Origin: a virus
Lineage: Duplodnaviria; Heunggongvirae; Uroviricota; Caudoviricetes
Direction: 5' to 3' (one strand)
DNA length: 64,000 nt
Virus record (IMG/VR): IMGVR_UViG_3300037483_001818
Shown one piece after another: positions 32,982 to 34,055 of the stretch. The position numbers and the translations under genes were made by a program. Each line of letters starts with the position of its first letter. Positions within the stretch are counted from its first letter, which is position 1. The notes below the pieces were generated by a model. That model ran no database searches. It saw nothing but the letters and a program-made list of their open reading frames with translations, and was not told where the DNA came from.

Positions 32982-33062
32982 GCGTCAATGGTGGAACAAG
33001 CAGACACGGTGCTCCTAAAAAGCACTGCTCATGGCATGAGGGTGCAAATCCCTCTTGACGCA
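32982..33062 (+). tRNA. tRNA-Leu (TAA), type II (12-nt variable arm), T-loop TGCAAAT
   Basis: acceptor GCGTCAA/TTGACGC with A73, anticodon arm GTGCTCCTAAAAAGCAC. Confidence 0.55.
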
Positions 33063-33069
33063 CGTTTCC

Positions 33070-33143
33070 GTCGCGATAGCCCAACTGGAAGCGGCAGTGG
33101 TCTGAGGGGCCATTCAGTGCGGGTTCGAATCCCGCTCGCGACA
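33070..33143 (+). tRNA. tRNA with Leu anticodon GAG but short (type-I) variable arm; encoded CCA
   Basis: acceptor GTCGCGA/TCGCGAC with A73 then CCA, anticodon arm GTGGTCTGAGGGGCCAT, T-arm GCGGGTTCGAATCCCGC. Confidence 0.5.
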
Positions 33144-33165
33144 CCATCAAGGAAGGAGGAGCCCC

Positions 33166-33726
33166 ATGACGCAGCAAGTTTGGTTCACGAGCGACACTCA
33201 TTTCGGCCACACGAACATCGTGAAGTACAGCGGGCGTCCGTGCGCTGACGTGCACGAGATGAACGAAGCGCTCGTCCTCAACTGGAACGCGGTCGTGAAG
33301 CCCGGCGACCTCGTGTATCACGTCGGCGACTTCGCGCTCTGCGACGTCGAGGCCGCGACGAAGATCGTGAAGCGCCTTGCAGGCCAGAAGTACCTCGTGT
33401 TTGGAAACCACGACAAGGCGCTGCGCAAGGACAAGATCTTCCTCGGGCACTGGATCTGGGCGAAGGACATGGCGGACATCACGGTCGGATCGCAGCGCAT
33501 CGTGCTCCTGCACTACGCGATGCGCGTGTGGAACCAGAGCCACCGTGGCGCTTGGCAGTTGCACGGACACTCGCACGGTTCGCTCAAGGAGGAACCGCAC
33601 TTGCTCCAGGCGGACGTCGGCGTGGACTGCTGGAACCAACGTCCGGTTTCGTTCGAGGAGCTCGTCACGAAGATGGCGACGAAGAATTATCAGCCCGTCG
33701 ATCATCACGGGCGTCAAGACGAGTGA
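33166..33726 (+). CDS. calcineurin-like metallophosphoesterase
   Basis: SDTHFGH, GDFALCD, GNHD, GHSHG metal-binding motifs; strong RBS AAGGAAGGAGGAG. Confidence 0.75.
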   Translation: MTQQVWFTSDTHFGHTNIVKYSGRPCADVHEMNEALVLNWNAVVKPGDLVYHVGDFALCDVEAATKIVKRLAGQKYLVFGNHDKALRKDKIFLGHWIWAKDMADITVGSQRIVLLHYAMRVWNQSHRGAWQLHGHSHGSLKEEPHLLQADVGVDCWNQRPVSFEELVTKMATKNYQPVDHHGRQDE

Positions 33727-33753
33727 CTGATCGAACTCCGCCTAGTACGTTTC

Positions 33754-33829
33754 GCCGACGTAGCCCAACTTGGTAGCAGGCAATGCGCTTAGATCGCATC
33801 CAGTGCTGGTTCAAATCCAGTCGTCGGCA
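33754..33829 (+). tRNA. tRNA with Leu anticodon TAG, type-I variable arm, extended D region
   Basis: acceptor GCCGACG/CGTCGGC with A73, anticodon arm ATGCGCTTAGATCGCAT, T-arm GCTGGTTCAAATCCAGT. Confidence 0.5.
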
Positions 33830-33963
33830 CGATGAAAAAAGAAAGCCTACTCGCGTCGACGTCGCACATGCACTACTGGCGGCCCGAGGGGGCGGGTGTT
33901 CGTGCAGAGGCGCGACGATAGCTTTCGGCTTGCAGTGACCTTCGCAGACAGCTCTGACACCAC

Positions 33964-34037
33964 GTCGTCGTGGTCCAACGGGTAGAGGCGTCCCGCTCAA
34001 GACGGGAAAGTTGCGGGTTCAAATCCCGCCGACGACA
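33964..34037 (+). tRNA. tRNA with Leu anticodon CAA, type-I variable arm; encoded CCA
   Basis: acceptor GTCGTCG/CGACGAC with A73 then CCA, anticodon arm TCCCGCTCAAGACGGGA, T-arm GCGGGTTCAAATCCCGC. Confidence 0.5.
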
Positions 34038-34055
34038 CCAGCGAGTGCTTGGCGA

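What the first reader, a model, noticed from the sequence alone, without database searches (positions are those of the whole stretch)
32982..34040. Leucine-anticodon tRNA cluster in which three of four members are type I (short variable arm)
tRNA(TAA) at 32982 has the expected 12-nt variable arm. The tRNAs with anticodons GAG (33070), TAG (33754) and CAA (33964) fold with 5-nt variable regions and slightly extended D regions. All keep A73, and two encode CCA. All bacterial tRNA-Leu are type II, so short-arm Leu isoacceptors would be unusual.
Basis: partly seen in the sequence, partly recalled or inferred. Interest (0 to 1): 0.55.

Follow-up and report, generated by a model that had tools for sequence, protein, structure and literature searches.

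The report
Short-armed leucine tRNAs in a huge phage
Three of the four leucine tRNA genes here really do lack the long extra arm that textbooks give every leucine tRNA, but such tRNAs are already known from Streptomyces and turn out to be common in phage genomes, so this is a new example, not a new kind of molecule.

Summary
tRNA-Leu(GAG) 33070-33146, tRNA-Leu(UAG) 33754-33829 and tRNA-Leu(CAA) 33964-34040 are well-scoring cloverleafs with 5-nt variable loops. tRNA-Leu(UAA) 32982-33062 keeps a 12-nt arm.

S. coelicolor tRNALeu(CAA) is type I and is leucylated by its LeuRS (Fan et al. 2019, PMC6614811).

I built a covariance model from 16 chromosomal type I Leu(CAA) genes, 15 from Actinomycetota. 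It ranks the three window tRNAs above the other 39 tRNAs in the window. They keep A73, A14, A15:U48 and G18G19.

The same family is annotated as tRNA-Leu in cultured phages of Mycobacterium, Pseudomonas and Synechococcus, with further matches in Streptomyces and Gordonia phages, and it occurs in more than 120 IMG/VR contigs.

Three related contigs, up to 532 kb, keep the same layout of Leu tRNAs around a metallophosphoesterase gene. All their Leu tRNAs are short-armed, and their stems show compensatory changes.

The window looks like a huge phage, probably of Myxococcota. The tRNAs are most likely ordinary leucine decoders charged by the host LeuRS; charging was not tested.

Verdict: real, a new member of a known kind, modest interest.

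The parts
32982..33062 (+). tRNA-Leu(UAA), long-armed (12-nt variable region: 3-bp stem UGC/GCA, 5-nt loop, U48). Atypical elbow: no GG in the D loop and a T loop that reads UGCAAAU. A73, no encoded CCA.
   Evidence: ARAGORN; Rfam 45.7 bits; scores only 33.7 bits with the type I Leu model R1. Relatives carry a type I tRNA with a different acceptor stem in this slot, so it is not their ortholog.
33070..33146 (+). tRNA-Leu(GAG), type I (5-nt variable loop UCAGU). 3-bp D stem, C13, A14, A15:U48, G18G19, A73, encoded CCA. Reads CUC and CUU, which make up 58% of Leu codons in 14 window ORFs.
   Evidence: R1 71.1 bits against Rfam 51.8. Orthologs in L377, L379 and L381 show compensatory stem changes. 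Nearest relative is Mycobacterium phage Bonray tRNA-Leu(gag), 76% identity outside the anticodon. Codon use.
33166..33726 (+). Calcineurin-like metallophosphoesterase gene (186 aa) that sits inside the Leu tRNA cluster. It marks the conserved cassette.
   Evidence: Pfam PF12850 and PF00149. Homologs at 82-92% identity lie between short Leu tRNAs in L377-L381.
33754..33829 (+). tRNA-Leu(UAG), type I (5-nt variable loop CCAGU). 3-bp D stem, A14, A15:U48, G18G19, A73, no encoded CCA.
   Evidence: R1 63.9 bits against Rfam 53.6. The orthologous slot in relatives has the same acceptor 5' strand GCCGACG but anticodon CAG in L377 and L381 and UAG in L379.
33964..34040 (+). tRNA-Leu(CAA), type I (5-nt variable loop AAGUU). 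3-bp D stem, A14, A15:U48, G18G19, A73, encoded CCA.
   Evidence: R1 64.0 bits against Rfam 57.4. Close ortholog with identical acceptor-stem strands in L381 4124-4199.
18623..23513 (+). Context: dense array of 32 tRNA genes interrupted by an HNH endonuclease ORF (21327-21863). With the Leu cluster and the others, the window holds 42 tRNA genes.
46705..49893 (-). Context: three more tRNA genes (46705-47003), an ORF with a PTH2 peptidyl-tRNA hydrolase domain (47117-47995), and RtcB RNA ligase (stop at 48331). The true RtcB is about 520 aa, so the 694-aa ORF overcalls the N terminus.
53559..53921 (-). Context: tmRNA gene, tag peptide ANDNNGAVALAAA.
   Evidence: ARAGORN; Rfam RF00023 173.6 bits.

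Best explanation
These are three working leucine tRNA genes of the short-armed (type I) kind. They sit in the large tRNA set of a huge phage or similar mobile element, probably one that infects Myxococcota.

They belong to an existing family. It includes the chromosomal tRNALeu(CAA) of Actinomycetota and many phage tRNA-Leu genes covering all six leucine anticodons.

Proposed mechanism, inferred and not shown here:
1. The genes are transcribed and processed like their neighbours.
2. The host leucyl-tRNA synthetase charges them with leucine. Bacterial LeuRS reads the discriminator A73, A14, the A15:U48 tertiary pair and the G18G19/T-loop elbow. It does not read the anticodon or the long arm.
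3. All of those elements are kept in these three tRNAs, and the 5-nt variable loop is the minimum length found to support charging.
4. They then decode CUC/CUU (GAG), CUA and probably CUG (UAG), and UUG (CAA). Those codons cover most leucine codons in the element's own genes.
5. This supplements the host's leucine tRNAs during infection.
For: Gene quality:
- Rfam tRNA scores are 51.8-57.4 bits.

Family membership:
- Model R1 was built only from 16 chromosomal type I Leu(CAA) genes. It scores the three at 71.1, 64.0 and 63.9 bits.
- That is above all 39 other window tRNAs; the next is Arg(CCU) at 55.7 bits.
- Only these three score higher with R1 than with the general Rfam tRNA model (+19.3, +6.6, +10.3 bits).

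Identity elements:
- A73, A14, A15:U48, G18G19 and U54..A58 are present in all three.
- These are the E. coli Leu identity elements listed in PMC6614811 and PMC9976931.
- The D-arm motif UG/UA-NNN-N-AAY(N)GGUAGA matches E. coli tRNA-Leu(CAG), whose sequence I verified.
- Across viral loci, short Leu tRNAs (n=167) have A14 in 99%, A15:U48 in 98% and A73 in 100%. No other isotype combines these.
- tRNA-Ser keeps its long arm in all but one case in the same loci, and tRNA-Tyr in all but two. That fits synthetases that need the arm.

Selection on the fold:
- 40 distinct type I Leu: 97.9% of cells paired against 61.6% in shuffles, 19 of 21 pairs with changes on both sides, slid controls 37-45%.
- 12 tRNAs from the window and three related contigs: 100% paired, 14 of 20 pairs with changes on both sides.

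Conserved cassette:
- L377/L378, L379/L380 and L381 keep the layout tRNA-Leu, tRNA-Leu, phosphoesterase gene, tRNA-Leu, (tRNA-Leu).
- Every Leu tRNA there is 72-77 nt.

Biochemical precedent:
- S. coelicolor LeuRS and human mitochondrial LeuRS leucylate a type I tRNALeu(CAA).
- Five nucleotides is the shortest variable loop that gives good charging (PMC6614811).
- E. coli tRNALeu variants that lack the long arm remain active (PMC9976931).

Demand:
- CUC is 42% and CUU 16% of Leu codons in 14 window ORFs.
Against: - Nothing here shows expression or charging.
- E. coli LeuRS failed completely on the S. coelicolor type I tRNALeu(CAA), and the authors attribute type I charging to a special LeuRS domain (PMC6614811).
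- The probable host is Myxococcota, not Actinobacteria, and its LeuRS was not examined.
- The host assignment rests mainly on one gene. RtcB is 77-83% identical to proteins named from Kofleriaceae, Myxococcota and Deltaproteobacteria MAGs, and up to 90% to unnamed metagenome proteins. An 86% homolog lies in a bacterial-looking context at 70% GC.
- R1's margin over the best non-Leu tRNA is only 8 bits.
- The A5 alignment was fitted to the model, which favours pairing.
Confidence: 0.75

Rival explanations
1. The tRNAs are made but serve mainly to get round host defence. Without the long arm they would escape host nucleases or toxins that pick out type II tRNAs. They could then replace cleaved host tRNA-Leu, or act as decoys.
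For: - The element invests heavily in tRNA repair and rescue: RtcB ligase, a PTH2-domain ORF, tmRNA and 42 tRNAs.
- Short-armed Leu is frequent in viral contigs: 30 short, 9 intermediate and 28 long among Leu(CAA) hits to a length-neutral pattern.
- In cellular genomes outside Actinomycetota it turned up mostly in tRNA arrays on short MAG contigs.
- All Leu tRNAs in the related cassettes are short.
Against: - No arm-specific tRNA-Leu nuclease was identified or searched for here.
- Actinomycetota keep a type I Leu(CAA) as an ordinary chromosomal gene, and the S. coelicolor gene could not be knocked out (PMC6614811). Loss of the arm therefore needs no defence story.
- This reading is compatible with the tRNAs also being ordinary decoders.
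Confidence: 0.12
2. The tRNAs carry leucine anticodons but are charged with another amino acid, so the element deliberately recodes or mistranslates leucine codons.
For: - The type I shape is shared with most non-Leu isotypes.
- E. coli LeuRS rejected a type I tRNALeu.
Against: - None has G3:U70 (all three have C3-G70), so AlaRS is unlikely. None has a long arm, so SerRS is unlikely.
- By established identity rules, most of the remaining synthetases read the anticodon and would reject NAG or CAA.
- The bodies score best with a tRNA-Leu model and carry the Leu-type A15:U48 plus A73 combination.
- GAG would read 58% of the element's leucine codons, so recoding would be catastrophic.
Confidence: 0.04
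3. The genes are decaying or non-functional tRNA copies, for example remnants or former integration targets, that still fold on paper.
For: - Several ARAGORN calls elsewhere in the window look doubtful: His(AUG), Ile(AAU), an 87-nt Thr call and one with an 8-nt anticodon loop.
- Thermodynamic z-scores are modest, -1.1 to -1.9.
Against: - Every stem position in the 12 lineage sequences is paired, with 14 pairs changed on both sides.
- The cassette is conserved across contigs whose phosphoesterase gene has diverged to 82-89% identity.
- CM scores are high.
- Each window tRNA's nearest relative is a same-anticodon tRNA in another phage, not a local duplicate.
Confidence: 0.05

Closest known systems
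Type I tRNALeu(CAA) of Streptomyces coelicolor and other Actinomycetota (Fan et al. 2019, NAR 47:6369, PMC6614811)
   Same: - 73-74 nt cloverleaf with a 5-nt variable loop, 3-bp D stem, C13, U8-A14, G18G19 and A73.
- A model built from 16 such chromosomal genes scores the window tRNAs at 64-71 bits.
- Coexists with long-armed tRNA-Leu in one genome.
   Different: - In these bacteria only the CAA isoacceptor is short. Here GAG and UAG are short too, and in relatives UAA and CAG as well.
- The Streptomyces version has G15:C48; the window tRNAs have A15:U48.
- The setting is a phage-like element probably linked to Myxococcota, not an actinobacterial chromosome.
Short tRNA-Leu genes annotated in cultured phages: Mycobacterium phage Bonray and other Bixzunavirus (Leu-gag 74 nt, Leu-caa 75 nt), Pseudomonas phage vB_PseuGesM_254 (Leu-tag 75 nt, Leu-caa 74 nt), Synechococcus phage S-CREM1 (Leu-taa 73 nt)
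   Same: - Same architecture, with high scores on the same model (78, 69.7 and 85.2 bits).
- They sit in phage tRNA clusters; in Bonray a type I pair lies next to a type II Leu(cag).
- Bonray Leu(gag) is the nearest relative of the window's Leu(GAG), 76% identity.
   Different: - No sequence-level relationship between the phages themselves: no megablast match, and RtcB is only 26-31% identical to proteins of cultured phages.
- I found no paper that discusses the short arm in phage tRNA-Leu.
Canonical bacterial type II tRNA-Leu (e.g. E. coli leuQPV tRNA-Leu(CAG), 87 nt)
   Same: 3-bp D stem, a position 13-22 mismatch, D-loop motif AAY(N)GGUAGA, A15:U48, A73 and anticodon-independent identity.
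   Different: The 15-nt variable arm is replaced by 5 nt, and position 13 is C, not G (C13 in 73% of short and 2% of long phage Leu tRNAs).
Animal mitochondrial type I tRNALeu
   Same: Short variable loop; A73 and A14 as identity elements (PMC9976931). Human mitochondrial LeuRS also charges the Streptomyces type I tRNA.
   Different: - Mitochondrial tRNAs have weak, AT-rich, partly unfolded structures and their own dedicated LeuRS.
- S. coelicolor LeuRS does not charge human mitochondrial tRNALeu(UUR).
- I did not test any sequence relationship.
tRNA gene arrays of Mycobacterium and other bacteria (e.g. the M. mucogenicum cluster, Behra et al. 2019, PMC6582537)
   Same: Dense arrays of 11-32 tRNA genes whose members differ in structure from the housekeeping copies. 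They include a tRNALeu(UAG) with a short variable loop. Arrays on MAG contigs L297, L343 and L359 also carry several short Leu isoacceptors.
   Different: Those arrays are reported on bacterial chromosomes. The window is rich in ORFs without known relatives, has 62% GC and carries HNH endonucleases. Its relatives carry a GH25 lysozyme gene and reach 532 kb, which points to a huge phage.

Membership tests
Type I (short variable loop) tRNA-Leu, as defined for S. coelicolor tRNALeu(CAA) | Canonical cloverleaf with a leucine anticodon (NAG or YAA) at positions 34-36 | tested here: met
   ARAGORN and two covariance models place GAG, UAG and CAA in a 7-nt anticodon loop.
Type I (short variable loop) tRNA-Leu, as defined for S. 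coelicolor tRNALeu(CAA) | Variable loop of 5 nt with no hairpin; five is the minimum for good charging (PMC6614811) | tested here: met
   UCAGU, CCAGU and AAGUU. Length requirement.
Type I (short variable loop) tRNA-Leu, as defined for S. coelicolor tRNALeu(CAA) | Sequence and structure profile of the family (3-bp D stem, C13, U8-A14, D loop AAYGGYAGA, NNAGY before the T stem) | tested here: met
   Model R1, built from 16 chromosomal genes: 71.1, 64.0 and 63.9 bits. These are the top three of 42 tRNAs and the only ones scoring above their Rfam tRNA score. The margin to the next tRNA is 8 bits.
Type I (short variable loop) tRNA-Leu, as defined for S. coelicolor tRNALeu(CAA) | Leucylated by a LeuRS | not testable with these tools
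   Needs aminoacylation assays or charged-tRNA sequencing. The only precedent is PMC6614811.
Canonical bacterial type II tRNA-Leu | Long variable arm (more than 10 nt, usually a hairpin) | tested here: not met
   Not met for GAG, UAG and CAA (5 nt). Met for UAA at 32982-33062 (12 nt).
Canonical bacterial type II tRNA-Leu | E. coli-type leucine identity set: A73, A14, A15:U48, G18G19 with U55/C56, U54-A58 | tested here: met
   All present in the three short tRNAs. The set is listed. The long-armed UAA lacks GG in its D loop and has G55.
Identity-switched or mistranslating tRNAs (body of one isotype, anticodon of another) | Identity elements of a non-Leu synthetase (G3:U70 for Ala, long arm for Ser, G-1 for His) | tested here: not met
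   3:70 is C-G in all three and there is no long arm. Position -1 is C (GAG), U (UAG) and A (CAA), so none has G-1. The bodies fit the Leu model best.
Huge-phage or jumbo-phage translation-gene island | Large tRNA set with tmRNA and tRNA repair genes, on a viral contig rich in ORFs without known relatives | tested here: inconclusive
   - 42 tRNAs, tmRNA, RtcB, a PTH2 domain and HNH genes are present.
- No capsid or terminase gene lies in the window.
- Relatives reach 160 kb and 532 kb and carry a GH25 lysozyme gene.
- A chromosomal island is not excluded.

The most novel reading that the evidence does not exclude
Short-armed tRNA-Leu may be a phage-wide tRNA family that has escaped notice.
- It covers all six leucine anticodons.
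- It occurs in phages of Actinomycetota, Cyanobacteria and Pseudomonas, and in this Myxococcota-linked huge-phage lineage.
- It keeps the E. coli-type A15:U48 element that the Streptomyces tRNA lacks.

If so, ordinary bacterial LeuRS enzymes accept arm-less tRNA-Leu far more widely than the one biochemical study concluded. Phages might favour the arm-less form because it escapes host factors that recognise the type II arm.
Probability: 0.25. Interest if true: 0.55.

Novelty: new member of a known kind. Interest (0 to 1): 0.3.

Why it matters
For this window, the practical point is annotation. These are correctly called tRNA-Leu and should not be flagged as anomalies or as recoding signals.

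More broadly, the tRNA identity literature still states that tRNA-Leu has a long arm everywhere except animal mitochondria (PMC9976931). The one study of a bacterial exception ties charging to a special actinobacterial LeuRS domain.

The survey made here suggests the exception is common in phages of several host phyla. In the same tRNA arrays, tRNA-Ser and tRNA-Tyr almost always keep their arms. That agrees with the rule that bacterial LeuRS does not read the arm.

It also makes one question testable: which LeuRS enzymes accept arm-less tRNA-Leu, and does A15:U48 decide it?

Tried and rejected
Searches that found nothing useful:
- Megablast of 32000-35000 against cultured phages: no match.
- Exact 23-nt D-arm pattern of the UAG tRNA in viral contigs: no match.
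- blastn of the window's CAA tRNA against phages: one partial hit only. A family consensus worked instead.
- Exact-sequence lookups of the 694-aa RtcB ORF and of P0034: not on record.
- PHROGs and Pfam scans of about 40 ORFs: most had no hit, so no capsid or terminase confirms a virion.
- Literature searches linking phage with short-armed tRNA-Leu: nothing beyond PMC6614811 and a passing remark in PMC6582537.

Analyses with caveats:
- The first 34 viral loci found through the phosphoesterase gene mostly had no tRNAs nearby. The closer relatives came from the larger protein database.
- The length-neutral pattern scan gave many non-tRNA chance hits: 41 of 120 viral and 47 of 120 genomic. It also requires a GGTTCRAATCC T loop. 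Its short-to-long ratios are therefore indicative only.
- The MAFFT alignment A4 misplaced the variable loop of the UAA rows, so I replaced it with the model-based A5.

Ideas considered and rejected:
- An actinobacterial host: RtcB points to Myxococcota.
- Recent local duplication with an anticodon change: the three are only 60-64% identical to each other.
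Full report
**1. The observation**

ARAGORN finds 42 tRNA genes and one tmRNA gene in the window. Four leucine tRNAs lie at 32982-34040 on the + strand. The Rfam tRNA model matches all four over its full length, in the same register and with the same anticodons. Scores are UAA 45.7, GAG 51.8, UAG 53.6 and CAA 57.4 bits, with E-values of 4e-8 to 2e-11 for the 1.6-kb stretch.

- GAG, UAG and CAA have 5-nt variable loops (UCAGU, CCAGU, AAGUU).
- UAA has a 12-nt variable region that can form a 3-bp stem.
- All four have A73. GAG and CAA encode CCA.
- The three short ones have a 3-bp D stem with an unpaired C13.
- The minimum-free-energy fold is the full short-loop cloverleaf for GAG and CAA. 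For UAG it recovers the acceptor, anticodon and T arms.

The description is accurate, and no alternative anticodon register appeared.

**2. What they are**

Short-armed leucine tRNAs turned up as soon as I looked outside the window. Two low-GC viral contigs found through the neighbouring gene carry a 74-nt tRNA(CAA) with the same D arm.

- In those loci ARAGORN found short Leu tRNAs with all six anticodons. tRNA-Ser kept its long arm in all but one case, and tRNA-Tyr in all but two.
- A length-neutral pattern gave Leu(CAA) counts of 30 short, 9 intermediate and 28 long in viral contigs.
- The same pattern gave 23, 3 and 45 in one-genome-per-species prokaryotic contigs. It needs a particular T loop and gives many chance hits, so the ratios are only indicative.

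Of the 26 short or intermediate genomic hits, 22 are the only tRNA in their 8-kb locus. These come from Actinomycetota, several on contigs of 0.39-7.7 Mb: Streptomyces, Kitasatospora, Actinomadura, Sphaerisporangium, Catellatospora, Streptomonospora and Nanopelagicales. One comes from an Anaerolineae MAG. The other four sit in tRNA arrays on short MAG contigs.

**3. The literature**

Fan et al. 2019 (PMC6614811) showed the following:
- S. coelicolor tRNALeu(CAA) is type I.
- Its single LeuRS and human mitochondrial LeuRS leucylate it. E. coli LeuRS does not.
- The leucine-specific domain of the Streptomyces enzyme confers this ability.
- Five nucleotides is the minimal variable-loop length for good charging.
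- Attempts to knock out the gene failed.

Behra et al. 2019 (PMC6582537) mention a short-loop tRNALeu(UAG) in a Mycobacterium tRNA cluster.

Giegé and Eriani 2023 (PMC9976931) summarise that E. coli Leu identity rests on A73, A15:U48, G18G19 and A20a. It does not rest on the anticodon or the long arm, and arm-less variants stay active. The same review still says tRNALeu has a long arm in all organisms except animal mitochondria.

I found no paper that links phages with short-armed tRNA-Leu.

**4. Membership tests**

I built a covariance model, R1, from 16 distinct chromosomal type I Leu(CAA) genes. No window or phage sequence was included.

- With filters off, R1 ranks the three window tRNAs first: 71.1, 64.0 and 63.9 bits. 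Next come Arg(CCU) at 55.7 and Ile(GAU) at 45.8. The long-armed Leu(UAA) scores 33.7.
- Only these three score higher with R1 than with the general Rfam model (+19.3, +6.6, +10.3 bits). Arg(CCU) is at -2.3, and every other tRNA scored by both models is lower still.
- All three carry U8, A14, A15:U48, G18G19, U54..A58 and A73.
- Their D arm has the same layout as E. coli tRNA-Leu(CAG), which I verified against RefSeq.
- Among viral loci, short Leu tRNAs (n=167) have A14 in 99%, A15:U48 in 98% and A73 in 100%. Long Leu tRNAs have 100%, 85% and 99%. No other isotype combines these features.
- None of the three has G3:U70.

**5. Evidence of selection**

- On 40 distinct type I Leu tRNAs from viral contigs, cultured phages, arrays and the window, 97.9% of stem cells are standard pairs. 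Shuffles give 61.6% and slid controls 37-45%.
- In that set, 19 of 21 pairs show changes on both sides, and A15:U48 holds in 39 of 40.
- The three window tRNAs are only 60-64% identical to one another.
- Each is nearest to a same-anticodon tRNA from another phage. GAG is nearest to Mycobacterium phage Bonray Leu(gag) at 76%. CAA is nearest to L045 at 75%. They are old isoacceptor lineages, not recent local copies.

**6. Close relatives of this locus**

The metallophosphoesterase gene at 33166-33726, which lies between the tRNAs, has homologs at 82-92% identity. The contigs that carry them keep the cassette tRNA-Leu, tRNA-Leu, phosphoesterase gene, tRNA-Leu, (tRNA-Leu):
- L377/L378: JGI 48.5 kb and ENA.
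- L379/L380: JGI 160 kb and Logan.
- L381: ENA, 531,777 bp.

Every Leu tRNA there is 72-77 nt long, including UAA and CAG.

- The slot just after the phosphoesterase gene has the same acceptor 5' strand, GCCGACG, throughout. Its anticodon is UAG in the window and L379, and CAG in L377 and L381.
- On a model-fitted alignment of the 12 tRNAs from this lineage, all 239 stem cells pair and 14 of 20 pairs change on both sides. Slid controls give 26-47%.
- The window's long-armed Leu(UAA) is the odd one out. Relatives have a type I tRNA with a different acceptor stem in that slot.

**7. Cultured phages**

A family consensus matches 279 INPHARED records, 165 of them over at least 80% of its length. 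By host genus, all matches comprise Streptomyces 95, Mycobacterium 43, Bacillus 30, Gordonia 29, Erwinia 28, Corynebacterium 14, Pseudomonas 8 and Synechococcus 4.

I verified three:
- Mycobacterium phage Bonray (Bixzunavirus): annotated tRNA-Leu(gag) of 74 nt (R1 78 bits) and tRNA-Leu(caa) of 75 nt, next to a type II Leu(cag) of 86 nt.
- Pseudomonas phage vB_PseuGesM_254: Leu(tag) 75 nt (69.7 bits) and Leu(caa) 74 nt.
- Synechococcus phage S-CREM1: Leu(taa) 73 nt (85.2 bits).

The family is therefore already annotated as tRNA-Leu in GenBank, and it is not confined to phages of Actinobacteria.

**8. Context and host**

The window has 62% GC throughout and no close cultured relative. Most of its ORFs have no known relatives. 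Those with a hit include two HNH endonucleases, a KaiC/DnaB-like ATPase, ThiF, a 2OG oxygenase, SprT, HD and SPFH domains, an AAA ATPase, a PTH2 domain and RtcB. It also carries a tmRNA gene (173.6 bits).

- RtcB is really about 520 aa long.
- It is up to 90% identical to unnamed metagenome proteins. It is 77-83% identical to proteins named from Kofleriaceae, Myxococcota and Deltaproteobacteria MAGs.
- An 86% homolog lies among NAD kinase, RecN, IleRS and LspA genes in DNA of 70% GC.
- Relatives carry a GH25 lysozyme gene and reach 160 and 532 kb.

I read the window as part of a huge phage, or less likely a chromosomal island, associated with Myxococcota. This rests mainly on one gene and is an inference.

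**9. How it most likely works**

Shown here:
- The genes are intact and conserved.
- They carry the full set of bacterial leucine identity elements with a variable loop of permissive length.
- They cover the element's main leucine codons. In 14 ORFs: CUC 42%, CUG 27%, CUU 16%, UUG 11%, CUA 3.5%, UUA 1%.

Inferred:
- The host LeuRS charges them, and they act as ordinary decoders within a near-complete phage tRNA set.

The main caveat is that E. coli LeuRS rejected the Streptomyces type I tRNA. That tRNA has C48 with G15, so it lacks the A15:U48 pair that E. coli LeuRS needs. The window tRNAs and 98% of phage type I Leu tRNAs keep A15:U48. That might explain the difference, but it is untested.

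Rival readings are defence evasion, recoding and pseudogenes. They are listed separately with the evidence for and against each.

**10. Verdict**

The finding is real and carefully described. What it describes is a new member of a known kind: type I tRNA-Leu, documented biochemically in Streptomyces and annotated in cultured phages of several host genera. The modest interest lies in three points:
- the extension to several isoacceptors;
- a lineage that is probably not actinobacterial;
- how common the family seems to be in phages compared with how rarely it is mentioned.

Noticed in passing
window 19713-19786, 20118-20194, 21016-21087, 22955-23026, 32982-33063; also 24 tRNAs in viral loci (e.g. 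L027, L031, L050, L066, L140, L153): T loops that begin UGC (G55 in place of the usual U55/pseudouridine) go almost always with D loops that lack GG and carry AG where G18G19 should be. This holds in 29 of 31 such tRNAs, against 17 of 2130 tRNAs with normal UUC T loops. It looks like a G18:U55 to A18:G55 swap of a tertiary pair. It is spread over at least 13 isotypes and many viral contigs, and affects 5 of the window's 42 tRNAs.
   Followed up: partly
L377 3581-3655, L381 3568-3643, L379 3562-3637 versus window 33754-33829: Orthologous tRNAs in the slot after the phosphoesterase gene share the acceptor 5' strand GCCGACG but differ at the wobble base: CAG in L377 and L381, UAG in L379 and the window. 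The window has no tRNA-Leu(CAG), although CUG is 27% of its leucine codons.
   Followed up: partly
genome loci L274, L278, L321, L350, L354 versus L263, L268, L270, L271, L323 and others: In the chromosomal type I tRNA-Leu(CAA) of Actinomycetota the 15:48 tertiary pair covaries. It is G15:C48 in Streptomyces and Kitasatospora, and A15:U48 in the other lineages and in nearly all phage copies. This may bear on why E. coli LeuRS rejected the S. coelicolor tRNA.
   Followed up: partly
window 46930-47003 (-): A good tRNA (Rfam 54.3 bits) with an 8-nt anticodon loop, UUUAUAAA. ARAGORN reports it as a four-base anticodon UAUA. It could be an Ile(UAU)-like tRNA with an expanded loop.
   Followed up: no
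window 22265-22333 (+), 46705-46778 (-), 20764-20850 (+): Doubtful ARAGORN-only calls: a 69-nt His(AUG), an Ile(AAU), and an 87-nt Thr(GGU) with its anticodon at position 40. None reached the Rfam gathering score in the whole-window scan. The type I Leu model also gave weak extra hits at 20856-20928, 22674-22746 and 20382-20451, which may be degraded tRNAs.
   Followed up: no
window 47117-50415 (-) and 53559-53921 (-): A cluster of translation-rescue genes: an ORF with a PTH2 peptidyl-tRNA hydrolase domain, RtcB RNA ligase and a tmRNA (tag ANDNNGAVALAAA). RtcB is up to 90% identical to metagenome proteins, and 77-83% to ones named from Kofleriaceae and Myxococcota MAGs. The 694-aa RtcB ORF overcalls the N terminus by about 170 aa.
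   Followed up: partly
window 21327-21863 (+) and 27554-28336 (+): Two HNH endonuclease ORFs, one of them inside the 32-gene tRNA array. Similar arrangements are seen in tRNA regions of other large phages.
   Followed up: no
L381 (ENA ERZ25039492 contig_17925, 531,777 bp): A relative of this locus lies on a 532-kb contig. Its phosphoesterase is 89% identical over the aligned 77% of the query, and it has the same 412-aa neighbouring ORF and the same Leu tRNA cassette. If viral, it is among the largest phage genomes. I examined only 6.6 kb of it.
   Followed up: no
L382 2712-2900: A more distant relative of the phosphoesterase locus has no tRNAs nearby but carries an ORF with an Acb2/Tad1-type hairpin domain, a family of phage proteins that counter bacterial immune signalling. 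This supports a phage origin for this gene neighbourhood.
   Followed up: no
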